Shown: positions 4,351 through 62,521 of the stretch, one piece after another
How positions within the stretch are numbered: position 1 is the first letter of the stretch
Layout of the letters: every line of letters begins with the position of its first letter
Virus record (IMG/VR): IMGVR_UViG_3300016480_000208
DNA length: 64,000 bases
Strand: one strand, 5' to 3'
From: a virus
Taxonomy: Duplodnaviria > Heunggongvirae > Uroviricota > Caudoviricetes > Demerecviridae
Made by a program: the position numbers and the translations under genes
The notes under the pieces: generated by a model
The model's database searches: none
What the model was told of the DNA's origin: nothing
Seen by the model: only the letters and a program-made list of their open reading frames with translations

Positions 4351-4363
4351 ATATTATTCCTTA

Positions 4364-4597
4364 TTAGTTAAAAGGATTACTGAGGAAATCATGAACACTT
4401 ACAACTTCTTTATAGTCGATACCTTCACGGAGATTGGCCTCGATTACTATACGCCCCTCATCGTCCCTAAGGGATAGCCCTCGACTACACGTTCCCGTGA
4501 TTTCAAAAATATGTCCTACGGTGAAAGTACCACCGGGTACTTTCAATGCCCGCATAAGGGAAATACGTTTCCCCACAACAGTATCAGGTATAAACAT
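4364..4597 (-). CDS. Hypothetical small protein.
   Basis: 77-aa ORF whose start overlaps the prs-like stop (ATGA junction). Confidence 0.35.
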   Translation of the reverse strand: MFIPDTVVGKRISLMRALKVPGGTFTVGHIFEITGTCSRGLSLRDDEGRIVIEANLREGIDYKEVVSVHDFLSNPFN

Positions 4598-5945: not shown

Positions 5946-6475
5946 TTATTATATCAAATATTCACGTTTCGGGCCAGAAATACAATAAATTACCAGACGC
6001 CTTCCGAGTACAATTCCAGCCCTGACCCACCATTACGCTCAAGATCAAAAGGCTGACCACTTTCTAGGACTACTTGCATAGCCTCTTCCCGATCCATGAA
6101 TACTCGCCATTGATCAAGGAAGCCCTGCTCTTCTTTGGCGATCACAGACCTACCCGATTCTTTAAGGCCAATCCAATCTGCTTGCTCTCGCATAAGCGGA
6201 TCCCAGTGACGAATACCTACTAAGGTAACAACACGACCATCCTTGAAAGTAATACGGTTAGCGGCACAAACAACTTTACGCGGGAATGAGTGCATCAGAT
6301 ACAGTCCTTTTCAAAGTCATCAAGTTTAATTACTGGATAGATATCTTGGGAGTCCCGGAAGGTGCTCCAAAGCTCGTCTGCGTCACTACCAAATTCATGG
6401 CACACAAAAACACCATCAACAAACACAGAACCCATAACACCACCATTGAGTTCATCATTGCAAACATGCTTGAGT

Positions 6476-6754
6476 TCAATTGCCATTTTTCTCTACCTCT
6501 TGCATCAAATTCTCCATACACTTCTTCATAACACTTGCTTTTGGTGGGTTAATCAGCCTTACATTAGTATTGGATATGGCTACCTCAAGTTTTTCTGTTA
6601 ACTCTGCCCCACGAATCTTTTGTTCAGTAGTTAAGTATTTAGAGTCTATAGCGCAAACCTCTAAGTATTTGGTTAATTCCGTACTATCAAACACTTGGGG
6701 GTTAGCTACTAGCAATGGTGACACTAAGGCAAACATCATAATAAACTTTTTCAT
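6476..6754 (-). CDS. Small secreted protein (signal peptide).
   Basis: MKKFIMMFALVSPLLVANPQ N-terminus. Confidence 0.45.
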   Translation of the reverse strand: MKKFIMMFALVSPLLVANPQVFDSTELTKYLEVCAIDSKYLTTEQKIRGAELTEKLEVAISNTNVRLINPPKASVMKKCMENLMQEVEKNGN

Positions 6755-6818
6755 TTGCTATTCTCCTTAATTTATATAGATATTATAGCAAAAAACGGGC
6801 ACGATGGCCCGTCTTATT

Positions 6819-7247
6819 TCACCATTTCCCGCCAGTTAACGGGATATCAAAGATTGTTTCCATCCCAGGGCTTAGGTACAGTTGCTTACAGAATTTCCTA
6901 CCATTATGGTGTTTCTCAAAACACAGGTACGGATTACCCTCTGAGTCTCGCTTAACCACTTCGGTATCATAGCCAAGTTTTCGCATATAGCGGTTTACAG
7001 AGGAGTAGATATGTATAATCTGCTCATGTGAGACATAAAACCTTTTTATTGGGCCTGTATCGCTATCTCGGTAACGACCCATAAAACCTTGCCCCTGGTC
7101 TGGGTTTACAGGGAGTAGGTCGAGTACAATAGCTGCGAATGTTTGTACAGCTTCTTTAGCAATAGCTTCTTCTTTATTAAACATGTTTAATCCTCTTAAT
7201 ATGTAATTTGGTGTCTTCTGTAATGAAGAAGTGGGAAACAAAGCCAT
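6819..7247 (-). CDS. Hypothetical protein.
   Basis: 142-aa ORF, followed by a hairpin terminator at 6790-6815. Confidence 0.45.
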   Translation of the reverse strand: MALFPTSSLQKTPNYILRGLNMFNKEEAIAKEAVQTFAAIVLDLLPVNPDQGQGFMGRYRDSDTGPIKRFYVSHEQIIHIYSSVNRYMRKLGYDTEVVKRDSEGNPYLCFEKHHNGRKFCKQLYLSPGMETIFDIPLTGGKW

Positions 7248-7487
7248 CGATGTTATTAAGGGTGCCTAGGAAGAGGGGTTCATTACCCAACTCTTCGAGC
7301 TCAAAACCCTCGCCGGACATGATACCCCTTATAACCACTTTACGCCTATCTGTATCGCCCTCGTCAACTACACAGTAAAGCATAGCTTGTCCGCTTGGGT
7401 GCAAAGTCAGGCTCAGAACCTGAGCTGATTTGGACAACTAAAGCTCTGTATCCCCTATAAATCTAAGTGGGAAACGGTGAATAGTTT

Positions 7488-7940
7488 TCATTTAGTAAGC
7501 TCCAGAACAATGTTGTTGGCTTGGTCAACCAGCTTACGTTTGCGGTTAGAGTACACCACCCCTTTGTATCCTCCCAGAAGTTCCCCTAGCAGCTTGGGGC
7601 TGCAAGACACACAGTAGCTAAGAATCTCCAGCAATTCAGAGAGTCTGATATAGGCTGCTGGGTTACCTTTACCGGCCAAAGTGTTTGGGACTTTGGTATC
7701 AGGATGTACACCAAAGCTGACCAGAAATACTGTCAGGGACAGTAGCTTTTGGGCATCCTCAAAAGATACAGCTACTTTGGTCTTATAGTTGTAGAAACCT
7801 TTCAGGCCATCAAGCCAATAGATGATACCTTCACTATTGGTTCCACGCATGGTCTCAACCGACTGGAACCCCAACTCTTCCATAAAGAGGTTAATCAGTT
7901 CGATTTTACGATACAGTTTAACGCCTTGTGCTTCGCTCAT
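7488..7940 (-). CDS. Hypothetical protein.
   Basis: 150-aa ORF. Confidence 0.4.
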   Translation of the reverse strand: MSEAQGVKLYRKIELINLFMEELGFQSVETMRGTNSEGIIYWLDGLKGFYNYKTKVAVSFEDAQKLLSLTVFLVSFGVHPDTKVPNTLAGKGNPAAYIRLSELLEILSYCVSCSPKLLGELLGGYKGVVYSNRKRKLVDQANNIVLELTK

Positions 7941-8165
7941 TTTAGCCTCCGTAAAGTTTTAGCCAATTCTCGACATACTTCTATTCGTTGTTTGGTAGTC
8001 AACTTCTTCCACTGTGGGGAAGTTTTAGACTCATAAACCATAGCCTTCTTTATAACCTCTCGCTCCGCAGAAGTTATCAAGGGATACGTTGAACAGTCTT
8101 TTAGTATGGCGTGTGCTGGAGTACCCACCAAAATAAGAAATAGTACTATATACTTAATCACAACG

Positions 8166-8723
8166 TTACCCCACTATGATTTTGTGATGGTCGGCCACCT
8201 CAATCTCTTTAGACTCCAGACGGTCGATCACTTCTTCAAGAAGAAGATACCGACCCCAGGCATCCCAGCCCACATCCATACTACGCCCAAAACCTTCCAA
8301 GTTACCATGGGAGTGGCCGTAAATATGCAGACTGCCGCGGCCCTGGTCTTGCCAAGCACGAATCGAGTAATGGCACATAACAATCTTCTTACCGTCAAAC
8401 TTATGGCAATACAGGTCTCGAACATTAGCTACTCCCACATCTAGTAGCTGCTCTTCTGTTACTTTATCCAGCCACCCATCGTGGTTACCCCGGATAATAA
8501 CCTTGTTACCCGTCATGGACCTCAGTACATCCAGAGTAAATCTTGCCGTACCAAAGCTAAAGTCGCCCAAAATGTACAGAGTATCAGTTTCTCGTACAAG
8601 GTCGTTATGGTATTCGATAAGGGCCTCAGTCATTGCTTCCCGAGAATCCCAAGGACGGTGCTCGGGACACAGATTAAGAATGTTAAGGTGACGGTGATGA
8701 AGGTCACTGGTGAAATAAATCAT
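8166..8723 (-). CDS. Calcineurin-like metallophosphoesterase.
   Basis: GDxxFG, GNHD(GW) and GHSH motifs. Confidence 0.65.
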   Translation of the reverse strand: MIYFTSDLHHRHLNILNLCPEHRPWDSREAMTEALIEYHNDLVRETDTLYILGDFSFGTARFTLDVLRSMTGNKVIIRGNHDGWLDKVTEEQLLDVGVANVRDLYCHKFDGKKIVMCHYSIRAWQDQGRGSLHIYGHSHGNLEGFGRSMDVGWDAWGRYLLLEEVIDRLESKEIEVADHHKIIVG

Positions 8724-8724
8724 T

Positions 8725-9327
8725 TTATACCTCGAATTCTGTTATGCGGCAAGCAGTGTTTATAAAAGTAGTTAGAGTGGTAGTGATTGTACCTGTATCT
8801 TCATGTATATGCCCAAATACGTGGAACTTTGGTGGTACGGTGTCCACGAAATTGGCGATAGCAGTAGAGCCTACATGTTCTCCGCTGAAAACTGAGTCTA
8901 AGGTATAGAAGGGCGGGCTATGGGTTACCAACACATCCACCTTGCCAACCTTCTCAAGTTTATTAGCAATGAACTTTTCATCAGCCATAAACTCGAACGG
9001 CCCATAAATTGGAGACCATGGCATGAAACCAAACTTAACCCCTTCATGTGTATAGGTGCCACCAAAGAACACCATAGCATTTGGGATATTACTGGTAATC
9101 ATCTCAACTACTTCTGGCTGAGTAAGACAAGTATCATGGTTTCCTGGGATTATAAATACTTTGTCAAATGCAGAGCAATAAATATCCCAATCAAATATGA
9201 AACTGGCTATTTCATTTATAGTACCACGGTTAGTTAAGTCCCCGGCGATAATCAGAATATCCCCACCATGGCCATTTACTTTAGGTGGCTTTGCTCCATG
9301 GATATCAGACGTAGCTGTGATTTTCAT
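8725..9327 (-). CDS. Metallophosphoesterase (Icc-like).
   Basis: DIHG, GDLTNRG and GNHD motifs. Confidence 0.65.
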   Translation of the reverse strand: MKITATSDIHGAKPPKVNGHGGDILIIAGDLTNRGTINEIASFIFDWDIYCSAFDKVFIIPGNHDTCLTQPEVVEMITSNIPNAMVFFGGTYTHEGVKFGFMPWSPIYGPFEFMADEKFIANKLEKVGKVDVLVTHSPPFYTLDSVFSGEHVGSTAIANFVDTVPPKFHVFGHIHEDTGTITTTLTTFINTACRITEFEV

Positions 9328-10400
9328 TTTAAATCCTTAATAATCAAAAGAGGCACCACACTTCTCACAAACATCTGTCATGTACTGACCACCGCCACCT
9401 AGACATTTCCAGCTATGATTGCAGGATAATTCATAAGTACACTTGTTTAATAGGTACTCCTCATTTGCAATACTATTTAAAATATTTCTAACTTCGTAGG
9501 CTTTTTTATGTTGCGGCATATATGGATCATTTTGTACTTTACTAAGTACTTTTCTTTTGTGCTCGATATCTGTCTTAATATTTTGCACTTTTACTTCTGT
9601 TTCTTCACGCCAGAAATCTCTTTCCATAGTACTATTCCTTACATAAAGGGGTTAAGTAATACCATCATAGCAAAGAAAGCTAGAGAGGCTAGTTGGGCTG
9701 GAAAGTGCCAGATCCTTTTACCTTCCGGAAACATACGAGTCAGACCAGCATATCCAATAAGCTGGAACACCATCACTATAGATAGACAGGTTCCAAGAAA
9801 CCACATAATACTTAAGAAAGCGTCCATTAGTTCTCCTTAGAAGCAAAGATGGCTATCAGAATAAAGATAGCCACAGAGGACAGGATAATCGCTGCTTGTC
9901 TACTAAGTTCAAACTGAGGAAACTCCAGTAGACGTTCCCACATAAACACCAATGGTGCAGTATCAAACATCAGTAAGCTGGCAAAACTAAAGAATATAAA
10001 AGGCGTTGCCAGCAAAGCAAAAACCGTAATAGCCAATGCTTTAAGCAGTCGTTTAATCATAATTAAAACCTCAAAGTCATTTCTAAGGATACACCCATAT
10101 CATTGGCTCTGCAACCTGCCACAAACGCACTAACAGTGTTAGCAGCAGGCATGCCCTCTAAATCTATGCCTAACTTTATATTAAATACTCTACGATCCCC
10201 GTAGTCAGCTACGTAATCTATTTGTGGCTTGCCCATTAGTCCATCAAAATACAGCTCCATTAAGTCTCTAATCCCAAATCGGCAGGTACGGGGGACAGTG
10301 ATGGTGCCTTCTATATGTGTCCAAACGCTCATGTAATCTCTCCTCTCATTCAATATAAATATTATATCAAATAAGTGGCTTGTTAGCTACAGATATTATA

Positions 10401-10430
10401 TAAAAGAAAAGCCCGTCAAGGGACGGGCTT
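10401..10430 (-). terminator. Rho-independent terminator.
   Basis: agcccgtc aag gacgggct + T-run (minus). Confidence 0.65.
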
Positions 10431-10925
10431 TAGGTATTACGGACGAGGGGCTAGTATGGCACCACCAGTAAACATAGGTAGAACCATGGATGCCAGAATA
10501 GCCACAATAGCCACTACAACAATTAGTTCAATCAGGGTGAATCCATTACTTTTCTTTAGCATTTTTGACAGCCTTATCCACAAGCGGGGTTTCGGGTTGG
10601 GAGTTAATCACGTCTTTTGGTTTAGCCTGCAGGGTTTTATTTTCCAACTCTGTTGGCATTTCTACTTCCTCAGCAACTGGACGCTGTAACCTAGGTGCAA
10701 CCTCATTAATTGGTCGAATAATTGGTGAGGTCAGGGACTTGAACACAATATATACCAGTGTTAGAATGGTCATTACTAGACAGCCATAGCCGAACACGGA
10801 ATACTTGTTATTAAAGTCTTTTACTTTGGGGTGTCTATTAACACCCCAGATAAGAACACCCCACACCAGGATACCCAGTAGCATTGCTACTACTGGAATC
10901 CACATAATAATGCCAGTGTTACCCA

Positions 10926-11786
10926 TTATTTACCTGCCATGTTTTGAACAGCAATGGAGTCCAGCATTTCAGTAGGCACGAATACTTTATTTTCAGAAGC
11001 TGCCAGCTTTTCCAGAACTTCCAGTTGACGAAGTTTCAGGTAGTTCGGACTAAACATCTTATCGGCAACCATTGCTGTAGTAGCTGCTTTCATCATTTCC
11101 AATTCACGCCGCTGGGTTTCTACTTCTTTATCAGTCTGGATTTGCAGCAAGTCAAGGTTACGCTGAGCCAATACTTGGTCTTCGTTTTCCTTACGCTTAG
11201 CGGCATTTTCTTGAGCATCAGTGATAATTTTGGGGTAGTCTACATTGGTAAGGCCAGCAGCCTTAACCAGGAAAGGTGTGCCCTTCAACTGATTTTGAAG
11301 CTCAGAATGCAGGAATTGGTTGACCTTATCCCGGTTAGATGCAATTTCCGCAATAGTAAACTTAGACAGAATTTGTGGCATCAAAGTATTAATCTTAGTA
11401 GATGCTGTACGATTATACACATCACCAAGCCGGATCACCGCCAGTTGATCCTCTACGTTCTGTGCTGGAATGATGCTGAAAATATTGTCGTATTTGCTAG
11501 GGTCAATGGCCAGAGTCATTGATACCCCGTAAGTAAGGTTCAACTTGTCTTTAGGCATGAAAGTCTTAAATTCATTATTGAACACTTGGTCGGAGGCTTC
11601 TAGCAGTACCAGCTTATCACAATATCCCCAGCATTTATCCAGCCGGAACTTTGAGGGTTGGATAATATTTTCCTGGAAACCTTTAGGGGTTTGAATTTTA
11701 CCTACATAAGAGGTAGGTACCTCAGCTGGCTGGCCACATCCGGCCAGAACAAACATAGCGATCAACATCAATAGATATTTCTTCAT
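10926..11786 (-). CDS. Lipoprotein (lipobox LAGC), coiled-coil rich.
   Basis: MKKYLLMLIAMFVLAGCGQP signal and lipobox. Confidence 0.55.
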   Translation of the reverse strand: MKKYLLMLIAMFVLAGCGQPAEVPTSYVGKIQTPKGFQENIIQPSKFRLDKCWGYCDKLVLLEASDQVFNNEFKTFMPKDKLNLTYGVSMTLAIDPSKYDNIFSIIPAQNVEDQLAVIRLGDVYNRTASTKINTLMPQILSKFTIAEIASNRDKVNQFLHSELQNQLKGTPFLVKAAGLTNVDYPKIITDAQENAAKRKENEDQVLAQRNLDLLQIQTDKEVETQRRELEMMKAATTAMVADKMFSPNYLKLRQLEVLEKLAASENKVFVPTEMLDSIAVQNMAGK

Positions 11787-12122
11787 TTATTTCTCCACTT
11801 GGTTTATCAATTTATGTCATTATTATATCAAAGAACGGGGTTTCTAGCAAAAATTACCGCATAAGAGCGAAGGGCCAGGCAATTGCAATATAAATAGCAG
11901 ATACTATAGCAATTACCGTCATTCTAGCTGCGGCATTGGCCCTTGGGAGCATCATAAATTGTATGCGAATTTTTGCAACCTTTTGTCTGTGCCTTTCTGG
12001 AAGTTTTTCAATAGGGATATACCCCATATACATTCTGGTAAGCATCACTGCGGAACCGATACCCAGAAGGGCAGATATGGAGACATATACTACTAAAAAG
12101 TAGTGCAAAAACATATCAGTCA

Positions 12123-13034
12123 TTAAAAAGCCCCCTCATTTACAAAGAAATCTTCTATCACAGCCCTACGACCCTGCTCTTCGAGGTCATCCCATTCTTC
12201 TTTGGAATATAGATCGCGGATAACCTCAATTACCCGGTAAAACTCTTCATCAAAATGCTCTTTGCGGTTTTCACCAAACATCAAATCAGAGGCTTTGGAA
12301 CTACGCATCAAGAACTTCTTGGTGAGGTAGTGGTTAGTCTTTAGCTTGAACAAAAGCTCTCCATTGGTCGAATAGACCATCCAACCTTCATGCTTTGCTG
12401 TTTTTGCAACTTCCAGAGCCCATCCAAGGGTAGTTGGTACTGCCTGGTGGTGCATAAAACCCATATCTTTTGCAAGGGCGTTACGCTCCTCAAAAGAAAA
12501 CACCTTTTCAGGAGTTTTCACCCTCAAAAGGTGCAACCCAAAAGTTTCACTAACAATATGCGGGTCGCTGGGGTCTACTACCTCAAAAGTAAGGGTAGTA
12601 AACTCCGGAAACTTCACCAGCTCCTGTACCTTACTATGTGGGATAGAGTTAAAGAATCTAGTAATACCTAGAGCCACAAAATCAGAGTCTAGCGACCCAG
12701 TAGTAGAGAATAACAGACGATGCATACCCAGCTCTTCTACCACTGTAACATTCAGCATAAATCCATTAACTTTATAGTCAAGAATTACCTCCGTATCAAG
12801 AGGCAGACCTACTCCAGTGTTACGTTCCCCGAAGTTGTATACTTTAACCATTGGCTCTACGACTAATTGTTCACCACGGAACACTGTGCCACGAAACAGT
12901 TCCAACTCTGGGGTCCACAGGTTCTTGTAGAACACTTTGCGAGCATATTTGTAGATGGTGTATTCACCACATTCGGTGGCCTTCACTAAGCCCTCGGTAA
13001 CAAGTCGTTGGGCCATTTCATAAGTAGCTTTCAT
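12123..13034 (-). CDS. rnl: Rnl1-like RNA ligase (tRNA-repair type).
   Basis: From memory it aligns to the T4 Rnl1 N-terminus (YxIYKY..ELFRGTVF..EPM.K.FN) and has a nucleotidyltransferase motif I, KVNG. Confidence 0.6.
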   Translation of the reverse strand: MKATYEMAQRLVTEGLVKATECGEYTIYKYARKVFYKNLWTPELELFRGTVFRGEQLVVEPMVKVYNFGERNTGVGLPLDTEVILDYKVNGFMLNVTVVEELGMHRLLFSTTGSLDSDFVALGITRFFNSIPHSKVQELVKFPEFTTLTFEVVDPSDPHIVSETFGLHLLRVKTPEKVFSFEERNALAKDMGFMHHQAVPTTLGWALEVAKTAKHEGWMVYSTNGELLFKLKTNHYLTKKFLMRSSKASDLMFGENRKEHFDEEFYRVIEVIRDLYSKEEWDDLEEQGRRAVIEDFFVNEGAF

Positions 13035-13042
13035 AACATTCC

Positions 13043-13489
13043 TTAAATAAGTTTGATAGATGCACGAAGTTTGCGTTCTTGGCCTTCACGTACCTCTTGT
13101 GGAACGCCATGGATAGAATCACTACCATGACGGTTCTCTACAATGAGCGAGATAAATCGCGCACCATGTTGTTTGGCGATGTCTTGGTAAATTCCCACAT
13201 CTTTTTCTGTGGTGGCTGTGTTATGCACGACTACGCTTGTCCCATCTTCCAAAATCTGGCGAACAGTTAATTGGCACCAGTGATGGGCTAAGTGGATTTT
13301 ACGGATATCAAAATCGTAATCAGGGCCCCAGTAGTCGTCCGCAGCTACTGTAGTGAAGCTACCAAGGTTTTCAAAGATACCAGCCAAGGTAGATTTGCCG
13401 GCCCCAGAAACACCACGTACAAGAATTAGTGTTTTTTCCATGTTAGAACCCCAAAAGTTTAAGAATACCTGAAATAGCCATAAGAGCAA
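13043..13489 (-). CDS. pnk: P-loop polynucleotide-kinase-like protein (Pnk kinase domain only).
   Basis: Walker A GVSGAGKST. Lies adjacent to the RNA ligase. Confidence 0.5.
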   Translation of the reverse strand: MLLWLFQVFLNFWGSNMEKTLILVRGVSGAGKSTLAGIFENLGSFTTVAADDYWGPDYDFDIRKIHLAHHWCQLTVRQILEDGTSVVVHNTATTEKDVGIYQDIAKQHGARFISLIVENRHGSDSIHGVPQEVREGQERKLRASIKLI

Positions 13490-13680
13490 AGCCCAAGTAG
13501 ACCATAGGATCGATTATTTTCCAGTACTTGTAGTATTTTGGTTTAGCGTGGTAGGCACTACTAATAAAGCCGATGATATAACCAAAAATAAATAGGCTCA
13601 GGATTGGAAACTCGCGAATAAACTCAATCATTTGTTTCTCCATTCAATTTATACGAATATTATAGCAAAAAAGGTGGTTA

Positions 13681-13962
13681 TTAGCCACCTTTATCTTGCA
13701 ATAAGCAACCACTCAGGGCTGCTTCCAATTGGTCAATATAAGCTTTCTACTTTAGTCTATCGACTAGCAAACCTCTGGCTCTCTCTACCCTAGAATCTGG
13801 TACTTTGTCTAAGATAAACACGGGTTTTTCTGGCATTTTGCTGGCGCAAGGGACAAAAACCTCTTTGTTTACGTAGATTATCTCAGTTTTAACTATGGGT
13901 TTTTGCTAACAGCCTGTTAGCATCAATCCAAGGAGTCCAGCAAACCAAATACTTGCTCGCAT
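13681..13962 (-). CDS. Outer-membrane lipoprotein spanin (Rz1-like). It starts inside the 3' end of the Rz-like gene in the +1 frame and contains in-frame TAG codons.
   Basis: Manual translation gives MRASIWFAGLLGLMLTGC(TAG)QKP... with a lipobox Cys. The ORF track shows nothing here because of the TAGs. Confidence 0.5.
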
Positions 13963-14309
13963 ACTGTGCCCTCCTGATTTTTGGCCATAAGGGCCTTAAT
14001 TTTTTCTTCATAGGTTTTAGCCTGTGCGTCTGCCTGAGCTTGCTAAAGCTTACCCTGCGCCTTCAGGCTTTCCTAAGCCTAGGCCGCAAGTTGTACACGC
14101 TGGTTATTGTCTTCGATGACCTGTTCTAGTGAGGTATTATTCTATTCTAAAGTAGACACTTGTAATTGGTATTCCTATACCAGCTTATTCAAGTTAGCTA
14201 CCTCTACCTCTAAGCCCCTATTTTCAAACTTAGTAGCAGCCAGGGCTAGCTATAACACCTATATAATAGCTATTCCTATTAGGTTGTCCTTCAAAAATTT
14301 TTCTATCAT
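13923..14309 (-). CDS. Inner-membrane spanin (Rz-like) with an N-terminal TM segment, a coiled coil and 5 or more in-frame TAG codons.
   Basis: Manual translation: MIEKFLKDNLIGIAII*VL*LALAATKF...QLAA*A*ESLKAQGKL*QAQADAQAKTYEEKIKALMAKNQEG... The TAGs sit in hydrophobic and coiled-coil positions. Confidence 0.55.
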
Positions 14310-14346
14310 CTTATACTCCAAAAGCGGGCACAAGGCCCGCTTAATG

Positions 14347-14907
14347 TTATTTAATGCTAATTGTTTCAGCCAGTCCGGTATCGAATGCTCGGTTGGTTTG
14401 AACATCGCTAATAACTTGGCACATCTTATTCAGGTCAATTTTCGGGTAACCCGCCAGATTCATCCAGAAACCAGACCAAACGTACTCAAGATTGCTTTTG
14501 TAAGTAGCACACGCTTCCAGTTTACGGTCTTGTGAGAGCTGGAACTCCTTACGACCACCTTGCATGGCGGCTTGGATATTCAGATAAACTTTCTGGTCAA
14601 CAACCTGACCCTTCTCCTGAATCCACTGCATCATAGCCTTGGAGCCACCCTCTCCATAACGAGAACTCATTTCAGCCTCCACATACTTAGTCAGGTCGTT
14701 GATAAGCATGTCTGGAATCTGGGCCATGTCCTTAACGGTCATGGTCAATGCGCTCAAGGTATTGCGTGAGTTTTCATTATACTTGTTAATTGTCTGTTCT
14801 TGTCGTACAGCTTCGTTTTTATATGTGATGTAAGTCGTGAAACCAACACCAGCAGAAACGAAAACCAGAGCAAGTACAATAGCCAGAGCAATAAGTGCTG
14901 CCTTCAT
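14347..14907 (-). CDS. LemA-family membrane protein.
   Basis: N-terminal TM (MKAALIALAIVLALVFV) followed by a LemA-like helical region. Its start overlaps the upstream stop (TAATG). Confidence 0.45.
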   Translation of the reverse strand: MKAALIALAIVLALVFVSAGVGFTTYITYKNEAVRQEQTINKYNENSRNTLSALTMTVKDMAQIPDMLINDLTKYVEAEMSSRYGEGGSKAMMQWIQEKGQVVDQKVYLNIQAAMQGGRKEFQLSQDRKLEACATYKSNLEYVWSGFWMNLAGYPKIDLNKMCQVISDVQTNRAFDTGLAETISIK

Positions 14908-15962
14908 TAAAACATCTCCTCTTGATGAAATTTGCGGCCGATAAAGGCCATGCCTACAATTTGTAATACAACCAGAACAAAGATAACCCAAGGGTTCGCC
15001 TTCACAGAACTATCGAACAAGTCTTTAAACTCTTTATTGCTTACCCTTACGAAGTGTTTCTCAACCAAAGCCATCTGGTTTTTCAGCATGTCTAGGTTAA
15101 GTACATCACCCAAAGCTGCTTGACGAAGCTGAGTAATGAGTACTGCGTTATTCATGCCCATTGCGAAAGTGTGTGCCCTGAACCAGTTGACCTTGCCCCC
15201 AGCATCTACACCATAAATCATAATGAGCGCGTTTTTGTCTCCACCCTTTACCTGATACAACACGCTATCTGCATATGCCTCAGTTGGGTAGTCTGTTACA
15301 ATCACCCAAGGTGCTACTTGCTTTTTAGCACCATTTTCCTTCAACCACTCTCTTAGGTACTCGTTGAATCCTTGTACTGAAACCTTGCTGTTATTATCTA
15401 CCAAACGCACTCTGTAGTAGTCAAACGTGGAGGGCTCTTTTACACTGGAAATAATCTCACTTTTAGGGGGAAGGAGAACTGTATCCTCCATAGCCTTCAA
15501 GAAGTTATTAGTTGTGGTGGTGAGCGTTGCAGGCTCACCAATTACAACTTTAGACCAGCGGGGTGGCTCGTGGCTGCCACGACGGTCGATACGGTCGATG
15601 GTAAAGTTTCCTACGCTAGACCTAACTACCCAATCCCAGTCGTTAGTATGTTCATCACAGTAGATAGGAGTACACGTCCTATTGCCTTTACTATCGCTGG
15701 AGCATGACTCTCCGCATTTGTACTGGTGCTCACAAGAGGTATACTGTTTTTCTTTGCCAGTGATCTTACCGTGAAGCAGATTTGTTTCAAGAGTGCCAGA
15801 CCACATAGACAGTACAGTAATCATGGTTCCCAGTAGCGCTGCTACGACTCCAGCACCGAAATGTGCCAACACTTCTTTGGGGTTGATGCTTTTACCGTAG
15901 TACAACCTACTTCCAATGACCACAAAAACTGTAGCCATAAAGAACCATGCGAAGTAAATCAT
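14907..15962 (-). CDS. Cys-rich integral membrane protein.
   Basis: 351 aa with multiple TM segments and many Cys residues in the central loop. Confidence 0.45.
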   Translation of the reverse strand: MIYFAWFFMATVFVVIGSRLYYGKSINPKEVLAHFGAGVVAALLGTMITVLSMWSGTLETNLLHGKITGKEKQYTSCEHQYKCGESCSSDSKGNRTCTPIYCDEHTNDWDWVVRSSVGNFTIDRIDRRGSHEPPRWSKVVIGEPATLTTTTNNFLKAMEDTVLLPPKSEIISSVKEPSTFDYYRVRLVDNNSKVSVQGFNEYLREWLKENGAKKQVAPWVIVTDYPTEAYADSVLYQVKGGDKNALIMIYGVDAGGKVNWFRAHTFAMGMNNAVLITQLRQAALGDVLNLDMLKNQMALVEKHFVRVSNKEFKDLFDSSVKANPWVIFVLVVLQIVGMAFIGRKFHQEEMF

Positions 15963-17012
15963 TTACTCAGTTCCTTCTCATATTTAGAGATAGCAGCCTC
16001 TACCAAGTTCAGTGAATTAGCTGCGATACGTTTAGCTTGTTCGTTCTCGTAAACAGTAGTTGCAAAGGTCTGAATACCATAAGCCCCTAACATCGTGTAC
16101 GCTGTTTTTTGGGTTGGCAGTGCGCTATTCCACAGCAGCCCAAGTATACACGCAATAATTATCTTGCCGAGAGGGGCATTAAGCAAAAACTTACCCAATG
16201 CCGCGTTATCTCTATCCTTAGAGTCTTCTAACCCTACTTTACGCAAAACCCAACCAATAAAACTGAATACCAGCAATAATACAAACAAAAGAATCCATGG
16301 GCTGCCTGTTTCATCTCTGCAAATAGTTTCAGCCAAATAAATAAAGAGTGCGAGTTCCATTAACGTTTTCCCCTAAAAGAAGTCTTATTATCAAAGCCGT
16401 GCTTTTCCAGTTTGTCTTTGTCGCTCAGTTGAACCATCTCAGGCTCGCTGGCGTGACGACCAAACCAAGCATTAATTTCTGTATATAGAAATTGTGGGTC
16501 TACATTTTTAAATACTGCTACTTCTGGGTGGAAGCGAGATGCTTGACCACCAACGTTCAGCTGAGGGTTGGTAAAAATCCCGCCAACGTTATACCCCTTT
16601 TCATCAACATACTCCCCAACCAGTACAATTGGGGCTTTATACTTATCAGTATATGTTTTTAGTTCCTCTAAATACTCATTCACTCTCTCCAAAGCCCAGT
16701 CTTTCCATTTAGGCTTAAAACTTTGCAGGAGCTGACCCTTACTATCTACATAATAAACAATAACGCTCTGGTTCACCACCAGAATCTGGGCCTTGAATTC
16801 AGTATTATCAGTAAATCTGCCGTTCAAGCAGCGATGCTTAGACGGCAGTGCTTTAGCAACTCTAGAGGTCTTACGATCCCAAACAATTTTGGGGTCTTGA
16901 CCATACATAAAGAAGATATGGTCATATACGTCCTTAAACCGTTGAATAATCTTCATAAGCTCTCCTCATTCAATATAAATATTATATCAAATAACATCCT
17001 TGTTAGCTACGA

Positions 17013-17759
17013 TTATTCCGCTATGATGAAAGTCTCACCTTTAGTGAAAACTCGGTCTGCATACCGGTCTCTAAAGTGTGCTATCAAGTTACCTTCTGGA
17101 GTAATTTCTATGAGACACAACAAACGCTTGAACACATAGCCCAGGTCAAGGTATACCCTGTTATTTATAATAGTAGGCCTATCAACTACGGTGTGTCCAT
17201 GGAATACGTACTTCACATCCGGCAGAGCCTTACACGGCTGCCCATAGATGATGTCCCTACCCCACATTGCAGCTTTCTCCAAAACACCACTGGTATCCTC
17301 GGCCATTGCGCTGATAAAGTCTTCCCAGGTGTTGAAGCGGGCTGGAACTTCTGCGTGAACGAAGGCGTACCTGTTTCCATGGAAGTCCACACTAAGATGT
17401 ACTGGCAGTTTTAATACATCTTCTGCATACGTCTTTAGTACATGACGCTCCTCATTAAGAGCCCACACTCCGCCGTTAAAGTAGACCCAGTTGCCTGATG
17501 GCTCAGATTTGTGAGCAAAATCCGCCAAAAACTGGTCATGGTTACCCCTTACTGTGAGGTAGGCACCAGTTTTGTCATAGAGGAAAAACTTCAAAGTATC
17601 TGCGGAATCTGGGCCTCTATCTACCAAATCACCACAGTTAACTAGCAGGTCTTGTGTTACATCAAACCCTACTTTATTTAGCATTTTGTGTAAAGTATGA
17701 ATGTTTCCATGCAGATCGGTGCATACAAACAATCTACCAGAATTTTTTACTACCTGCAT
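17013..17759 (-). CDS. Ser/Thr protein phosphatase (lambda-PPase-like metallophosphatase).
   Basis: DLHG, GDLVDRG and GNHD motifs. Confidence 0.7.
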   Translation of the reverse strand: MQVVKNSGRLFVCTDLHGNIHTLHKMLNKVGFDVTQDLLVNCGDLVDRGPDSADTLKFFLYDKTGAYLTVRGNHDQFLADFAHKSEPSGNWVYFNGGVWALNEERHVLKTYAEDVLKLPVHLSVDFHGNRYAFVHAEVPARFNTWEDFISAMAEDTSGVLEKAAMWGRDIIYGQPCKALPDVKYVFHGHTVVDRPTIINNRVYLDLGYVFKRLLCLIEITPEGNLIAHFRDRYADRVFTKGETFIIAE

Positions 17760-17797: not shown

Positions 17798-18370
17798 TCA
17801 TAGATTACGGTTCCAGTTTAGAAAACCATAGGCACATATCGCAAGTATCGGTAGAAACTACCAACTATGCAACACCCCTATAATACACACCCCAAGCCAC
17901 TATACCCAGCTACTGCTTAACCCATTAGCCATAAGTACAGAAGCCACCGATATACCTCCCAAATATTGAAGCTCTACCGCGGTATAAGGTACGTCATGCT
18001 ATGACATGAACATACCTAAACTTAGGAGTCCAAGGGTTAGGTAGCAAATGTACCCTGCTAAGTAGATCCAGCCGTACCCTTGTAAGTTTCTAGGAACGTA
18101 ATCCCTGGTTGCCTATATCTAGCAGCAGGAACCAAATACTATGTTCTATATGGACTACGTAAGAGACGCGGAGTACTACTACTAAACCACACCCTAAACC
18201 TACCCAATGAAGAAACCCAGCTTATTAAGCCTCTAAATGAGAAACATTATAGCTGCGAAAGGTAGCAAGGTTATATACTGGTGGCCTTCCTATAGTACCT
18301 AGGTAGTGATAAGCTAAACTACTAAGAACTAAAGTTCTTTCATAGTTATTTGTTGCAGAAAGGCAGTCAT
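17797..18370 (-). CDS. TAG-dense multi-pass membrane protein (holin-like), ~191 codons with ~19 in-frame TAG.
   Basis: Manual translation from RBS gggagga + ATG (cat at 18368-70) to TGA at 17797-99 has no TAA or TGA. The TAGs fall inside hydrophobic helices. Confidence 0.5.
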
Positions 18371-21438: not shown

Positions 21439-21466
21439 ATTAATATGTAGTTTTTTCATAGCTCGA

Positions 21467-21899
21467 AATTGCTAGGGTCTGCCTGACGTTTCTCCTGCGC
21501 CTCAGGGGTGTTTGACACCTACTCCTAAAGGTACGGAAATCCACTAGGTAAAATTTCAAGATTTATATCAGAAGAACCTGAGATAATTGGCATCAGATTT
21601 AACCCAACAAGTGGGCTAAAACCTTCAATGGTCATCTTGTCAACTAAACCCTTTGTGTTTTTGTGCTCCAGCAATAAATTCTATTGTCTAGCCTACTCAC
21701 AAATAAGGTCGGGGGATACGCAAATATTATCTTCCCGCTACCTCAAGTATGTGAAGTATGGGTTAAATACGGATTGAATAGTGAAGTTGGGAAGTTTAGA
21801 AAGCCCCTACAACCTAACTACTATAGTGGTATCAGTAGGTTTGGCGTATGTTCTCACTACTTCAATCTAGGCACGAAAAGCCTTGTAGTCACTAGACAT
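21467..21899 (-). CDS. Hypothetical protein with ~8 in-frame TAG codons (start uncertain).
   Basis: Manual minus-strand translation is free of TAA and TGA from the ATG (cat at 21897-99) to TGA at 21467-69. Confidence 0.35.
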
Positions 21900-22702
21900 G
21901 AACACAGCTTTTTTGTCTGGAAAAACTGGAGCCGCCAGACAGAGCTTGAAGTCTTTAATAACGTCCCAGCTGTATGGGTCATAACCAAGCTACGCCAATA
22001 GTAGCTAAGTTCTGCTATGAAACTATGGTGCCCCAAATACTTCACGTGTAACTTCGTACCTATCCACATTATCCCAGATAGGGCCGGAGAACAGAATCTA
22101 ACCAGAACCGTCATACTACTCAAAAGGATAGCCTAACTAGGATACCGCCTCTAGTTGCTAAAAGATGTTCCCTACTTGGGGGATTTCTGCCCCAAGTAGG
22201 GTATTACTTTTAAGTAGTGTGCTTAAAGAGACAAGCAACTACTCACTCATTAAACCTCCCGATTGGTCAGCACATCTGCTCTAAGGGCATTAAGGGCGCT
22301 ACTAAAGTCAGGGCCAGCACTGGTATGAATTGTTCCGTACAACTCTAGTACTACTGTGCTGGTGCCAATACAGTAGTATCCAACGTCCCCATCGCCTGCA
22401 TCTGGCAGAGGTACAACTGGGTATTGTGTGCTACCAATTTTGAAAAACTCTGGTGCATCAAGGCGCACACTGTAGTCACGATCACTCATTTGCAGGCTCC
22501 TCTGCTTGCTCTGGTTCATTGATGGTGATGGGCTGCAGGCTAGTCAGAGGCTGGACAATCTGTGTGATAATAGCCTGGGCTCCACGTAGAGAGATACCTT
22601 CAGCTTTCACTACAGCGTCCAGGTTGTCGATAATGTGGTTAATTTGAGTATTGGAAATGGCGAATACCTGGTCTTTTACTTGTTCTGTCATGTTTTGCTA
22701 CC

Positions 22703-25880: not shown

Positions 25881-26087
25881 TTATGCTTTCTTGATGAACT
25901 GAACAATCTCTGCTGGGGTACGTAAGACGGTGCCGTCTTCCCTGATAAGAGCAGGAGCACTGCGAATGCCGTACCGCCTAGCAACCTCAATATCAGTTTC
26001 AATATTGAAATCAATATTCTTGCTGACTAGCTCGTTATAAAGTGCTACGCAGGCTTTGCAATTTTCAGTCTTAAACAATGTGATCAT
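25881..26087 (-). CDS. Glutaredoxin / NrdH-like redoxin.
   Basis: 68 aa with a CKAC active-site motif. Confidence 0.55.
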   Translation of the reverse strand: MITLFKTENCKACVALYNELVSKNIDFNIETDIEVARRYGIRSAPALIREDGTVLRTPAEIVQFIKKA

Positions 26088-26089
26088 TT

Positions 26090-26738
26090 CTACCTCTCAA
26101 GTGACCTTCTGGACTACTAAATACGTGAATTAAAATGCTAAACTAACTCTGAACCTTTTAACTGCTGAGTTATTTTTGGGGCCTGTTGCCATAAAACAAG
26201 AATCACCCCAGAATAAACCCCACTTAGGTCATATAGTGGTGCCTAGTAAAAGTATGCCTAGCCAGCAGCTTCAAAGTACTGAGTAGGTACTGGTAGGGGC
26301 TGCTAACTTAGGTCATCAACTACTGAGAAGGCCCCCTATAGGGATTTATCCTGCAAGTGGTTTATATATGCTACAGAGCTTTTGTCGACACTGTAGTTGT
26401 TTAGTTGGTCTATTTTTACTGGCAACACCCCTTCTGAGGCTCTAATAGATATAAAGTTATTAAGGAATTGTGGCTCATATTCCCAAATTATAACCTGGTT
26501 CTAGTTTAGCTAGGTTAGCACACTAATGGCCTCCTAGCGCTACTAGGCAGGGAACTACTTCTCCCTTAGCTGCTCCTGCTTCTACATAACGGTTTCCGTA
26601 CTTAGATTTTTAAATCCTTCCAGAATCTCCGTCTGGTAGGCTACTACCCAGTAACTAAGTACACCAAGCAGAATAGTACCGGCACGAAGAGCTAGAGTTT
26701 TAGGGTCTTTTATATCCTGTAAAAGAAGCTCTATCATA
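26090..26738 (-). CDS. Hypothetical protein, ~216 codons with ~17 in-frame TAG codons. Its TGA stop overlaps the ATG of the downstream redoxin gene.
   Basis: Manual translation; no TAA or TGA in frame for ~650 nt. Confidence 0.45.
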
Positions 26739-27714: not shown

Positions 27715-28378
27715 AGGTTATTCTCCACGAAATTAATAATGTTCTCTTTACCAAGAGATTTATCATTTATAAAGGTAAGGTCAAAACTAACCCCGTTTAG
27801 GGAGTTTTCAGAGATATGACTGTCTTTTATGCTTTCTTCCGGGTTTATGATATTTAGCATAACAAAATCCATAGATTTTAGCAGCCTAAACTCGTCTGGG
27901 AACCTAGTGTCATCTACCACAATAGTACACCCCGCATTTTCTATAATAGACTATTGCATCAAATCTACCCAGAAGGTATCTCTGATTCTATGGCGGAAGA
28001 ACTCTGTGCCCACTTTTTGCAGTAGCTCCCTGCCACTTATCGAGTCTACTATAAGTCCTGATTCTTGAGCCCAGCATATAAACTTATTTGTAGTCTAATC
28101 GACTTTAAGAGCTCCAAGTAGTCCCATAAGGGCATACTCTACGCTTTGCCTAGAGATGCCTTTGGTCTTGACGTAGGTGTTATCCTTGTCCCCGTAAAGA
28201 GCTTTGTGCACTACTTCTGGTTCGTTTACCTGTGATAGAATCTCAGTCAGAAAGATTTTCAGAGGCTAAGCAAAGCTTAAAATAACGGGGTCAGTGTTGG
28301 GGTATTTATGCAGGAACTACTTTGCTACGGCACTTTTACCACAACCTTTACTACCAGATAGGCTAATCTTATTTGCCA
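27711..28378 (-). CDS. Deoxynucleoside monophosphate kinase (T4 gp1-like) with 5 in-frame TAG codons.
   Basis: Manual translation MANKISLSGSKGCGKSAVAK*FLHKY... The P-loop aligns to the T4 dNMP kinase N-terminus. The listed ORF 27711..27920 is only the C-terminal part. Confidence 0.55.
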
Positions 28379-28800
28379 TAATAATGGGCTCCAGTCCTTA
28401 AAGTTACTTGCTTCATGTACTTCATCCTATGTTTCCCAAAATAGACCTACCCGTTAGTGGGGTCGTCTACTTCGTCATTTAACACCAAAGAAGCTATACG
28501 CAGTGACTCTTGCCACGCTGCCTTATTCTTTGGTGTTAGATTACTGTAGGAATCTCTTGTCCATGTAAACTAATGTCTTTTATATACAACCTTGGTTAGG
28601 TTATTTGAGAAATCTGGATGGTCGACTCTATTTAATGCTACAAACGCAGTAGCAATCTTGTCTATTTTTGTTGCACCTCTTGCTTCGTAGTATACAACGC
28701 AAGATAGGGCTTTGAGTTCGGAACGTGCATACTTACACGACCCTGCCTAGTTACCTCCAAAGCTGAGCATAAGCCCAAGCACTAAGATTAAATGTTTCAT
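28367..28800 (-). CDS. Secreted cell-wall hydrolase (SleB / Hydrolase_2-like); candidate endolysin with 3 in-frame TAG codons.
   Basis: Manual translation MKHLILVLGLMLSFGGN*AGSC...VVYYEARGATKIDKIA...NRV... Its stop overlaps the dNMP kinase start. Confidence 0.45.
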
Positions 28801-62446: not shown

Positions 62447-62521
62447 GGGGCATTAGCTCAATGGGAGAGCGGCGGACTCTAAATTCGCTGGTTAACGGTT
62501 CGAGTCCGTTATGCTCCACCA
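62447..62521 (+). tRNA. Amber-suppressor tRNA, anticodon CUA, on a tRNA-Ala-like body (G3:U70, A73). Predicted to decode TAG as alanine.
   Basis: Full cloverleaf: acceptor ggggcat/atgctcc+A+cca with the G3:U70 wobble; D-arm tagctcaatgggagagc (E. coli tRNA-Ala-like); anticodon arm gcgga-ctCTAaa-ttcgc; variable tggtt; T-arm aacgg-ttcgagt-ccgtt. A promoter lies 30 nt upstream. Confidence 0.85.

What the first reader, a model, noticed from the sequence alone, without database searches (positions are those of the whole stretch)
13681..14309. Overlapping Rz/Rz1-type spanin pair hidden by TAG codons; SleB-like hydrolase candidate elsewhere
Manual translation reveals an i-spanin-like protein (N-terminal TM plus a long coiled coil, 13923-14309). 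Its 3' end contains, in the +1 frame, the start of a lipoprotein with signal peptide and lipobox (MRASIWFAGLLGLMLTGC, 13681-13962). This is the classic embedded or overlapping spanin architecture, and both genes contain TAG codons. A secreted SleB/Hydrolase_2-like cell-wall hydrolase (28367-28800) overlaps the dNMP kinase start. The lysis functions therefore appear dispersed and all depend on amber suppression.
Basis: partly seen in the sequence, partly recalled or inferred. Interest (0 to 1): 0.6.

Follow-up and report, generated by a model that had tools for sequence, protein, structure and literature searches.

The report
Amber-interrupted spanin gene pair
A T5-like Aeromonas phage carries a real but unannotated pair of overlapping genes for the proteins that break the host's outer membrane at lysis, and they were missed because both contain TAG "stop" codons that the phage's own suppressor tRNA most likely reads as alanine.

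Summary
On the minus strand, 14309-13923 encodes a 128-aa protein with an N-terminal membrane helix, a long helical domain and 7 in-frame TAGs. 13962-13681 encodes a 93-aa lipoprotein (lipobox LTGC, 2 TAGs). The genes overlap by 40 nt.

The pair, its overlap and nearly all its TAGs recur in eight related Shenzhenvirus (Demerecviridae) genomes. dN/dS is 0.01-0.36, so both genes are under purifying selection.

The lipoprotein family matches o-spanins annotated in holin-endolysin-spanin cassettes of other phages (hhalign 98.8%, E 6.6e-17). The i-spanin is assigned only by architecture and weak PHROG hits. T5's own spanins and endolysin have no BLAST-detectable homolog in the window or in whole AhSzw-1, so this pair appears to replace them at a different locus.

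TAG most likely means alanine, not glutamine. The window's tRNA(CUA) has the G3:U70/A73 alanine identity set, and 282 TAG positions aligned to T5 favour Ala by 71 lnL units over Ser.

The SleB-type hydrolase (28369-28800) is confirmed. The spanin itself is ordinary. The alanine reading of TAG, and the fact that all identified lysis genes depend on it, are the unusual parts.

The parts
13923..14309 (-). i-spanin candidate. 128 aa, with 7 in-frame TAG and a TGA stop. TM helix at about residues 10-28, a long helical periplasmic domain, and a conserved Cys117.
   Evidence: Hydropathy 2.42 over 19 residues with TAG=Ala. AF2 gives helices 2-109 and 116-125 at pLDDT 83. Weak hits to Rz-like spanin PHROGs, E 1e-5 to 5e-4. 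dN/dS 0.05-0.36.
13681..13962 (-). o-spanin candidate. 93 aa, with 2 in-frame TAG and a TAA TAA stop. Signal peptide with lipobox L-T-G-C18; invariant C39 and C86.
   Evidence: hhalign 98.8%, E 6.6e-17, to o-spanins annotated in lysis cassettes. phrog_2291 at 2e-9 and phrog_456 (Rz-like) at 6e-5. Pfam LysC 26.4 bits against a cut-off of 27. dN/dS 0.01-0.29.
13923..13962 (-). 40-nt overlap of the two genes. The o-spanin start lies at offset +2 (= -1) relative to the i-spanin frame.
   Evidence: The overlap is 40 nt in seven genomes and 37 nt in TS3 and Akh-2. This stretch is invariant among the window, Mru1, AhSzw-1 and AhSzq-1.
13970..13975 (-). Shine-Dalgarno AGGAGG, 7 nt upstream of the o-spanin ATG.
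   Evidence: Read from the sequence. Conserved in the alignment.
14316..14319 (-). Shine-Dalgarno GGAG, 6 nt upstream of the i-spanin ATG.
   Evidence: Read from the sequence. Conserved.
14322..14342 (.). G+C-rich hairpin between the upstream gene (14347-14907) and the i-spanin start.
   Evidence: Conserved in all relatives.
13670..13692 (-). Terminator-like hairpin plus T-run spanning the o-spanin stop codons.
62447..62521 (+). Suppressor tRNA with anticodon CUA and alanine identity elements (G3:U70, A73, G2:C71). Needed to translate both spanin genes.
   Evidence: Only this tRNA and the adjacent tRNA-Ala(UGC) carry G3:U70 among the 15 tRNAs of the window.
26084..26737 (-). T-type holin, homolog of T5.041. 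217 aa with 15 in-frame TAG.
   Evidence: Pfam Phage_holin_T 81.2 bits and phrog_860 at 1.6e-32. tblastn to the T5 holin, E 3e-14.
28369..28800 (-). Secreted SleB-type cell-wall hydrolase, homolog of T5.083. 143 aa with 3 in-frame TAG. Candidate endolysin.
   Evidence: Pfam Hydrolase_2 56.3 bits and endolysin PHROGs. tblastn to T5.083, E 2e-12.

Best explanation
The region encodes a genuine overlapped two-component spanin of a Shenzhenvirus (T5-like) Aeromonas phage.

Proposed mechanism, inferred by analogy with lambda Rz/Rz1 and P2 LysB/LysC (my knowledge of those systems):
- The 128-aa i-spanin is anchored in the inner membrane by its N-terminal helix and extends a long helical domain into the periplasm.
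- The 93-aa o-spanin is lipidated at Cys18 and sorted to the outer membrane.
- The two join through their C-terminal parts to bridge the periplasm.
- Once the holin has fired and the wall has been degraded, the complex fuses or disrupts the outer membrane as the last step of lysis.

Both mRNAs contain TAG early in the coding sequence: codon 17 of the i-spanin and codon 19 of the o-spanin, the latter directly after the lipid-modified Cys. No functional product can therefore be made unless the phage's own tRNA(CUA) reads TAG, most likely as alanine.

What is shown: gene structure, conservation, purifying selection, o-spanin homology, presence and identity elements of the suppressor tRNA, and the Ala preference at TAG positions.

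What is inferred: membrane topology, complex formation, the role in lysis, and any timing function of the TAG codons.
For: - Both ORFs, the overlap, the lipobox and the TAGs are conserved in nine genomes, with dN/dS 0.01-0.36.
- The o-spanin family profile matches o-spanins of four unrelated phages, each directly after an i-spanin-like gene. Upstream lies an annotated holin plus endolysin in Jeremy and PQ43W, and an annotated lysozyme or endolysin only in Orisa03 and Rb1. hhalign gives 98.8%, E 6.6e-17, with all three Cys aligned.
- PHROG Rz-like spanin hits exist for both proteins, plus a near-threshold Pfam LysC hit.
- The i-spanin has a TM segment and a single long helix.
- T5.045/T5.044 spanins have no homolog in the window or in the whole AhSzw-1 genome.
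- This is the only small lipoprotein next to a TM-helix protein in either sequence.
- The i-spanin is a recombinant. Its C-terminal half travels with the o-spanin type, as expected for interacting partners.
- For TAG=Ala: the tRNA identity set; Ala at 24.7% of 295 aligned TAG positions against 5.8% Gln; Ala leads by 71 lnL units on the 282 positions scored; TAG72 is a GCN Ala codon in TS3, Akh-2 and L015; the +2 residue is Ala in 27 of 53 family members.
Against: - No experiment supports the function, and the reference 'o-spanins' are themselves annotated by similarity and context.
- The i-spanin has no significant profile match to the i-spanins of those four phages. Its PHROG hits are weak and could reflect coiled-coil composition.
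- The pair is not in a lysis cassette. It lies 12 kb from the holin and 14 kb from the hydrolase, among TAG-free genes of unknown function.
- The mature o-spanin is not proline-rich (5 of 76 residues).
- The Pfam LysC score is just below the curated cut-off.
- Seven TAGs in one gene demand efficient suppression, which has not been shown.
Confidence: 0.85

Rival explanations
1. The pair is a membrane protein plus lipoprotein with another envelope function, such as superinfection exclusion (as with the T5 Llp or Cor lipoproteins) or membrane remodelling. Outer-membrane disruption would then be done by something else.
For: - The pair lies away from the holin and hydrolase, among genes for membrane proteins of unknown function (14347-15962, 13443-13643).
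- The i-spanin has no significant homology to other i-spanins.
- The broad lipoprotein family is listed as 'unknown function' in PHROGs (phrog_3580/2291).
Against: - Family members in four unrelated phages sit directly after an i-spanin-like gene, downstream of an annotated lysozyme or endolysin, and match at hhalign 98.8%.
- No other spanin candidate exists in the window or in AhSzw-1.
- T4 also keeps its spanins away from its holin and endolysin (my knowledge).
Confidence: 0.08
2. The TAGs are true stops and the region is a decayed, non-functional remnant of a spanin pair.
For: - Public annotations of AhSzw-1, AhSzq-1, TS3 and Akh-2 leave the region empty or call only short fragments.
- Standard ORF calling finds nothing of length here.
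Against: - dN/dS is far below 1 in both frames across and beyond the TAGs.
- No TAA or TGA has accumulated in either frame in nine genomes.
- 207 of 228 window TAG positions are TAG in AhSzw-1 too.
- Essential genes (nrdA, helicases, primase, and terminase and portal in AhSzw-1) carry TAGs in the same way.
- A tRNA(CUA) is encoded.
Confidence: 0.02
3. The spanin reading is right, but TAG is read as glutamine (genetic code 15), as in crAss-like and other recoded phages, not as alanine.
For: - Metagenome gene callers already translate these ORFs with Q at TAG (P0001-P0039).
- CAG and TAG exchange at a few sites.
- Q would fit the coiled-coil positions.
Against: - The tRNA(CUA) has G3:U70, A73 and the same first five acceptor pairs as the neighbouring tRNA-Ala. 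It is unlike the window's tRNA-Gln.
- Gln is 118 lnL units worse than Ala over 282 positions.
- Q would put two or three polar residues inside the TM helix, lowering hydropathy from 2.42 to 1.86, and from 2.66 to 1.83 in AhSzw-1.
- The CAG/TAG exchanges are single-nucleotide neighbours and so are expected anyway.
Confidence: 0.08

Closest known systems
o-spanins of Pseudomonas phages Jeremy and Orisa03, Xanthomonas phage Rb1 and Ralstonia phage PQ43W (family phrog_3580 / phrog_2291)
   Same: - Homologous over the full length: hhalign 98.8%, 33-37% identity by tblastn.
- About 90 aa, with a lipobox and two further invariant Cys.
- Placed directly after an i-spanin-like gene of about 125-150 aa.
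   Different: - Those genes sit downstream of an annotated lysozyme or endolysin, with an annotated holin as well in Jeremy and PQ43W. They abut or overlap the i-spanin gene by only a few bases and contain no TAG.
- Here the pair is isolated from the other lysis genes, overlaps by 40 nt and carries TAG codons.
- The partner i-spanins are not detectably homologous.
Phage P2 LysB/LysC and lambda Rz/Rz1 (prototype two-component spanins)
   Same: - Same parts: an inner-membrane protein with a helical periplasmic domain, plus a small outer-membrane lipoprotein translated from a shifted frame of the same DNA.
- The overlapped layout is that of P2 (my knowledge).
- The Pfam LysC model hits residues 13-45 at 26.4 bits.
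   Different: - The score is below the Pfam cut-off.
- The o-spanin is not embedded as in lambda.
- The mature o-spanin is longer (75 aa), has a predicted helical C-terminal part and is not proline-rich.
T5 spanins T5.045/T5.044 (similar to T4 PseT.3/PseT.2)
   Same: - Same virus family and the same overlapped two-gene design (70-nt overlap in T5).
- Lipobox followed by Ala.
   Different: - No sequence similarity.
- Different locus. In T5 the pair sits just upstream of dnk, and here that position holds the SleB-like hydrolase.
- This looks like a non-orthologous replacement.
Stop-codon-recoded lysis genes of crAss-like and Agate phages (Borges et al., bioRxiv 10.1101/2021.08.26.457843)
   Same: - A phage-encoded suppressor tRNA.
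- In-frame stop codons concentrated in particular genes, including a spanin and other lysis genes.
- Replication genes only partly recoded.
   Different: - Those are uncultured gut phages with TAG read as Gln or TGA as Trp.
- Here the phages are cultured T5-like Aeromonas phages, and TAG is most likely read as Ala by a tRNA-Ala derivative.

Membership tests
Two-component spanin (i-spanin + o-spanin) | i-spanin with a single N-terminal transmembrane helix | tested here: met
   Residues 10-28, LIGIAIIAVLALALAATKF, have mean Kyte-Doolittle hydropathy 2.42 with TAG=Ala. The feature is conserved in both N-terminal sequence types.
Two-component spanin (i-spanin + o-spanin) | i-spanin periplasmic domain is helical or coiled-coil | tested here: met
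   AF2 gives helix 2-109 and helix 116-125 at mean pLDDT 83. There is no Pro in 101 residues, and a crude scan finds heptad-like hydrophobic spacing. Oligomeric coiled-coil formation itself was not tested.
Two-component spanin (i-spanin + o-spanin) | o-spanin has a type II signal peptide with a lipobox Cys and no Asp at +2 | tested here: met
   The lipobox pattern matches with Cys at position 18 (17 in TS3) in all six sequences tested, and LxGC aligns in all nine homologs. The +2 residue is TAG (Ala), or Ser in one genome. 53 of 60 family representatives match the pattern.
Two-component spanin (i-spanin + o-spanin) | The two genes are adjacent in an embedded, overlapped or separated arrangement | tested here: met
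   Overlapped by 40 nt, or 37 nt in TS3 and Akh-2.
Two-component spanin (i-spanin + o-spanin) | Linked to a holin and endolysin in a lysis cassette (usual but not obligatory) | tested here: not met
   The holin lies at 26084-26737 and the hydrolase at 28369-28800, which are 12 and 14 kb away.
Two-component spanin (i-spanin + o-spanin) | Sequence homology to recognised spanins | tested here: inconclusive
   The o-spanin is clearly homologous to annotated o-spanins. The i-spanin has only weak PHROG Rz-like hits (1e-5 to 5e-4) and no profile match to the partner i-spanins.
Two-component spanin (i-spanin + o-spanin) | Required for outer-membrane disruption at lysis, with a physical i/o complex | not testable with these tools
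   Needs genetics and biochemistry.
Pfam PF23793 LysC (Rz1-like) | Score at or above the gathering threshold (27 bits) | tested here: not met
   26.4 bits, covering residues 13-45 only. 6 of 11 close and distant relatives hit at E<=0.01. Only 3 of 60 family representatives hit at E<=0.001. Not filed as a member.
T5/T4-type spanins (T5.045/T5.044, PseT.3/PseT.2) | Detectable sequence similarity | tested here: not met
   tblastn of T5.044 and T5.045 against the window and whole AhSzw-1 finds nothing better than E 0.23.
TAG-recoded phage, genetic code 15 (TAG = Gln) | Phage-encoded tRNA(CUA), and in-frame TAG within conserved genes | tested here: met
   tRNA at 62447-62521. The window has 205 TAGs in 96 ORFs called with TAA/TGA as the only stops. 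They include nrdA, nrdB, helicases and primase, and are aligned through to T5.
TAG-recoded phage, genetic code 15 (TAG = Gln) | TAG decoded as glutamine | tested here: not met
   The tRNA carries Ala identity elements. Ala is favoured over Gln by 118 lnL units. The inserted residue was not measured directly.
Pfam PF07486 Hydrolase_2 (SleB-type cell-wall hydrolase) | Score above the gathering threshold | tested here: met
   56.3 bits against a cut-off of 27 for 28369-28800.
Pfam PF11031 Phage_holin_T | Score above the gathering threshold | tested here: met
   81.2 bits against a cut-off of 22.2 for 26084-26737.

The most novel reading that the evidence does not exclude
Shenzhenvirus phages use a genetic code I found no report of for phages, TAG = alanine, installed by a tRNA-Ala(CUA) carried in the phage tRNA cluster. 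Every identified lysis protein (T-holin, SleB-like hydrolase, i-spanin and o-spanin) is strictly conditional on it, while 24 neighbouring genes and the pre-early genes are TAG-free. On this reading the suppressor acts as a phage-controlled gate on lysis and late functions, and is not merely a passive codon reassignment.
Probability: 0.3. Interest if true: 0.8.

Novelty: new variant of a known kind. Interest (0 to 1): 0.55.

Why it matters
- It supplies the missing spanin genes for a genus of cultured Aeromonas phages that are being developed for aquaculture therapy. Their public annotations leave this region blank and break many genes at TAG.
- It shows a non-orthologous replacement and relocation of lysis genes within the T5 family.
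- It gives a culturable, genetically tractable system in which recoded lysis genes can be tested. So far that idea rests mostly on metagenomic phages.
- If TAG = Ala is confirmed, it is a stop-codon reassignment for which I found no report in phages. Gene callers that assume TAG = Gln would then be mistranslating these genomes.

Tried and rejected
- Searched for T5 spanins (T5.044/045) and the T5 endolysin Lys in the window and in whole AhSzw-1. No homologs.
- Searched for four other endolysin and holin types taken from the comparison phages. Nothing found, so the hydrolase is the only muralytic candidate seen. The scan was not exhaustive.
- Profile comparison of the i-spanin with the i-spanins that partner the homologous o-spanins gave no signal. 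Pfam gave only coiled-coil noise.
The database version with Gln at TAG was used instead.
- The minimum-free-energy fold of the suppressor tRNA is not a cloverleaf. I relied on ARAGORN and a manual layout.
- No sigma-70-like promoter lies upstream of the i-spanin. The consensus hits lie inside the gene and are no more frequent than in shuffles.
- Window versus AhSzw-1 TAG replacements are too few, and too dominated by single-nucleotide neighbours, to name the amino acid. The T5 comparison was used instead.
- Literature searches found no paper on TAG recoding, suppressor tRNAs or spanins in these Aeromonas phages.
- PHROG searches of four TAG-rich ORFs of unknown function found nothing.
- ORF length alone was rejected as evidence, because TAA/TGA-free frames of this size are common in the window.

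Full report
**Source and context.** The window is 88-94% identical over 12000-16000 to Aeromonas hydrophila phages AhP_Mru1, AhSzw-1 and AhSzq-1 (Demerecviridae, genus Shenzhenvirus, T5-like). In all three records the stretch that corresponds to 13681-14309 has no correct annotation: it is empty in AhSzw-1 and AhSzq-1, and Mru1 has only short fragments. RefSeq AhSzw-1 also shows nrdA, nrdB, helicases, tape measure, portal and terminase split into pieces. This is the signature of in-frame stop codons that were not recognised.

**The observation.** On the minus strand, ATG 14309 opens a 128-codon frame that ends at TGA 13923-13925. It has seven TAG and no other stop.
- A second frame from ATG 13962 runs 93 codons to TAA TAA, with two TAG.
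- The genes overlap by 40 nt, and the second starts at offset +2 (= -1) relative to the first.
- Each has a good ribosome-binding site: GGAG at 14316-14319 and AGGAGG at 13970-13975.
- The pair is flanked by hairpins at 14322-14342 and 13670-13692.
- Frame length alone proves nothing, since TAA/TGA-free frames of this size are common in the window.

**Are they genes?** I collected eight further versions: Mru1, AhSzw-1, AhSzq-1, TS3, Akh-2 and three metagenomic contigs.
- All keep both frames open except for TAG, and all keep the lipobox and a 37-40 nt overlap.
- Outside the overlap, dN/dS is 0.05-0.36 for the first gene and 0.01-0.29 for the second, with TAG counted as a sense codon.
- Metagenome gene callers that allow TAG = Gln already call both ORFs, without names.
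- The pseudogene reading is therefore rejected.

**What the lipoprotein is.** The 93-aa protein matches the lipoprotein signal pattern, with Cys18.
- It hits phrog_2291 (2e-9), phrog_3580, the Rz-like spanin phrog_456 (6e-5) and Pfam LysC at 26.4 bits, just under the cut-off of 27.
- tblastn finds 33-37% identical proteins in Pseudomonas phages Jeremy and Orisa03, Xanthomonas phage Rb1 and Ralstonia phage PQ43W.
- Each of these lies directly after an i-spanin-like gene, downstream of an annotated lysozyme or endolysin. Jeremy and PQ43W also have an annotated holin upstream.
- A profile-profile comparison of the two groups gives 98.8% probability, E 6.6e-17, over 87 columns, with all three Cys aligned.
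- A profile search of 1.84 billion representatives finds 163 clusters, all about 71-170 aa. Of 60 sampled, 57 hit phrog_3580 and 41 hit phrog_2291, both labelled 'unknown function'. C18, C39 and C86 are invariant.
- The protein therefore belongs to a broad o-spanin family that PHROGs has not named. By Pfam's own threshold it is not a member of LysC.

**What the first gene is.** With TAG read as Ala, residues 10-28 form a strong hydrophobic segment.
- AlphaFold on an alignment of 19 relatives gives one helix from residue 2 to 109 and a short helix at 116-125, at pLDDT 83.
- PHROG hits to Rz-like spanins are weak (1e-5 to 5e-4). There is no profile match to the i-spanins that partner the homologous o-spanins.
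- The i-spanin call therefore rests on architecture, on position and on its partner.
- The window's copy is a recombinant. Its N-terminal half is 62% identical to the TS3/Akh-2 type and 38% to the AhSzw-1 type. Its C-terminal half is 94% identical to the AhSzw-1 type and 32% to the TS3 type. The C-terminal half travels with the AhSzw-1-type o-spanin, which is 96% identical by tblastn. That fits a C-terminal contact between the two proteins.

**Relation to T5.** T5 has its own overlapped spanins (T5.045/T5.044) just upstream of dnk, and its holin and endolysin (T5.041/T5.040) downstream.
- In the window the dnk neighbourhood is kept, but the spanin position holds a SleB-type hydrolase at 28369-28800. 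It scores 56.3 bits on Hydrolase_2 and is a homolog of T5.083.
- The T-type holin is at 26084-26737 (Phage_holin_T, 81.2 bits).
- T5's spanins and its endolysin have no homolog in the window or in the complete AhSzw-1 genome.
- A scan for small lipoproteins finds no second spanin candidate.
- The pair studied here therefore looks like a non-orthologous replacement, placed 12-14 kb away from the other lysis genes.

**What TAG means.** ARAGORN finds a tRNA with anticodon CUA at 62447-62521, next to tRNA-Ala(UGC).
- Among the window's 15 tRNAs, only these two have G3:U70 with A73, and they share the first five acceptor pairs. By established tRNA biochemistry, G3:U70 is the main determinant for alanyl-tRNA synthetase, which does not read the anticodon.
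- Of 295 TAG positions in AhSzw-1 genes aligned to T5 homologs, 24.7% face Ala (3.45-fold enrichment), 11.9% face Ser and 5.8% face Gln. The window's own 73 positions also give 24.7% Ala.
- The likelihood analysis used 282 of the AhSzw-1 positions and substitution profiles taken from the same alignments. Ala is best, ahead of Ser by 71 log units and of Gln by 118.
- Within the spanins, TAG72 of the o-spanin is a GCN Ala codon in TS3, Akh-2 and one contig. The +2 position after the lipobox Cys is Ala in 27 of 53 family members. Gln would place two or three polar residues inside the membrane helix.
- I rate TAG = Ala at about 0.85-0.9. It has not been measured.

**Distribution of TAG.** TAG use is gene-specific.
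- Among the ORFs called, the two spanin genes are the only TAG-containing genes between 7283 and 17798. All 24 neighbouring genes have none.
- The holin has 15 TAGs. DNA polymerase, both ligases and the origin-binding protein have none, while helicases and primase have 6-14.
- 207 of 228 window TAG positions are also TAG in AhSzw-1.
- The AhSzw-1 homologs of the T5 pre-early genes dmp and A1 contain no aligned TAG. Those genes must be translated before the tRNA genes enter the cell, if DNA transfer is two-step as in T5 (inference).
- Recoding of lysis genes, including a spanin, is already described for crAss-like and Agate phages with TAG = Gln or TGA = Trp. I found no report for these Aeromonas phages or for TAG = Ala in phages. 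This is absence in the searched library, not proof of novelty.

**Mechanism.**
- Shown: two conserved, selected, overlapping genes; a lipoprotein homologous to o-spanins; a TM-plus-helix partner; early TAGs in both; a phage tRNA(CUA) of alanine type.
- Inferred: the usual spanin mechanism, in which an inner-membrane and outer-membrane bridge destroys the outer membrane after the holin and the wall hydrolase have acted.
- Also inferred: strict dependence of both proteins on the suppressor. Termination at the first TAG would leave only 16 residues of the i-spanin and 18 of the o-spanin.
- Whether this dependence sets the timing of lysis or is a passive consequence of the code change is open. I give the gating reading about 0.3.

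**Verdict.** The spanin itself is an ordinary member of a known kind. The unusual features are its concealment by TAG codons, its displacement from the T5 position, and the probable alanine meaning of TAG.

Noticed in passing
window 62447-62521 (+), next to tRNA-Ala(UGC) at 62534-62609: The amber suppressor tRNA looks like a duplicated tRNA-Ala with anticodon CUA (G3:U70, A73). TAG positions genome-wide align best with Ala in T5 homologs. I found no report of TAG = Ala in phages, and metagenome gene callers translate these genes with Gln.
   Followed up: yes
window 26084-26737 (-): T-type holin (Pfam Phage_holin_T, homolog of T5.041) with 15 in-frame TAG in 217 codons. It is not mentioned in the finding and is missing or fragmented in the AhSzw-1 annotation.
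   Followed up: yes
window 56359-58527 (+): A 722-codon ORF with 36 in-frame TAG, all 36 conserved in AhSzw-1. It has no T5 homolog and no PHROG hit, and its function is unknown. It has the highest TAG count of any ORF in the window.
   Followed up: partly
window 17798-18370 (-) and 21456-22250 (-): Two more very TAG-rich ORFs (17 TAG in 190 codons, 15 in 264) with no PHROG hit. The first looks like a multi-pass membrane protein. More than half of its inferred Ala positions are TAG.
   Followed up: partly
window 2556-13643 and 14347-17759 (-): Long runs of genes with no TAG at all surround the spanin pair. TAG use across the window is all-or-none per gene: polymerase, ligases and origin-binding protein have none, while helicases and primase have 6-14. 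The rule that decides which genes carry TAG is unexplained.
   Followed up: partly
L001 (AhP_Mru1) about 3130-3870; L015 4277-4795: In Mru1 and in one metagenomic relative, a gene of about 0.5-0.7 kb is inserted directly after the o-spanin stop. In L015 it is a GIY-YIG/T5orf172-type homing endonuclease. The Mru1 insert was read only by eye and itself contains TAG codons. The window lacks the insertion.
   Followed up: no
window 13443-13643 (-): A 66-aa TAG-free protein with two predicted membrane helices lies directly downstream of the o-spanin, preceded by a TATAAT-like -10 hexamer read by eye. It has no family match. It could be a lysis accessory, such as a holin or antiholin-like protein, but there is no evidence for that.
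   Followed up: partly
window 13923-14309 (-): The i-spanin is mosaic. Residues 1-60 resemble the TS3/Akh-2 type (62% identity), and residues 61-128 resemble the AhSzw-1 type (94%). The recombination point therefore lies inside the gene, with the C-terminal half co-inherited with the o-spanin.
   Followed up: yes
window 28369-28800 (-): The SleB-type hydrolase sits where T5 has its spanins, immediately upstream of dnk. Its signal region ends ...GGN(TAG)AGSC, which loosely fits a lipobox. It may therefore be a lipoprotein and not a plain secreted enzyme. T5.083 lacks this Cys.
   Followed up: partly
window 52587-53330 (-): A homing-endonuclease-like gene (phrog_681/559, with GCPKC zinc-finger motifs) carries 6 in-frame TAG. 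This parallels the recoded intron endonuclease reported for Agate phages.
   Followed up: partly
L009-L011 (RefSeq NC_047950 AhSzw-1): The public annotation is heavily fragmented by unrecognised TAG codons. nrdA is in three pieces, and helicases, tape measure, portal and terminase appear as short fragments. Several product names look spurious, for example 'nose resistant to fluoxetine protein 6' and 'toll-like protein'.
   Followed up: partly
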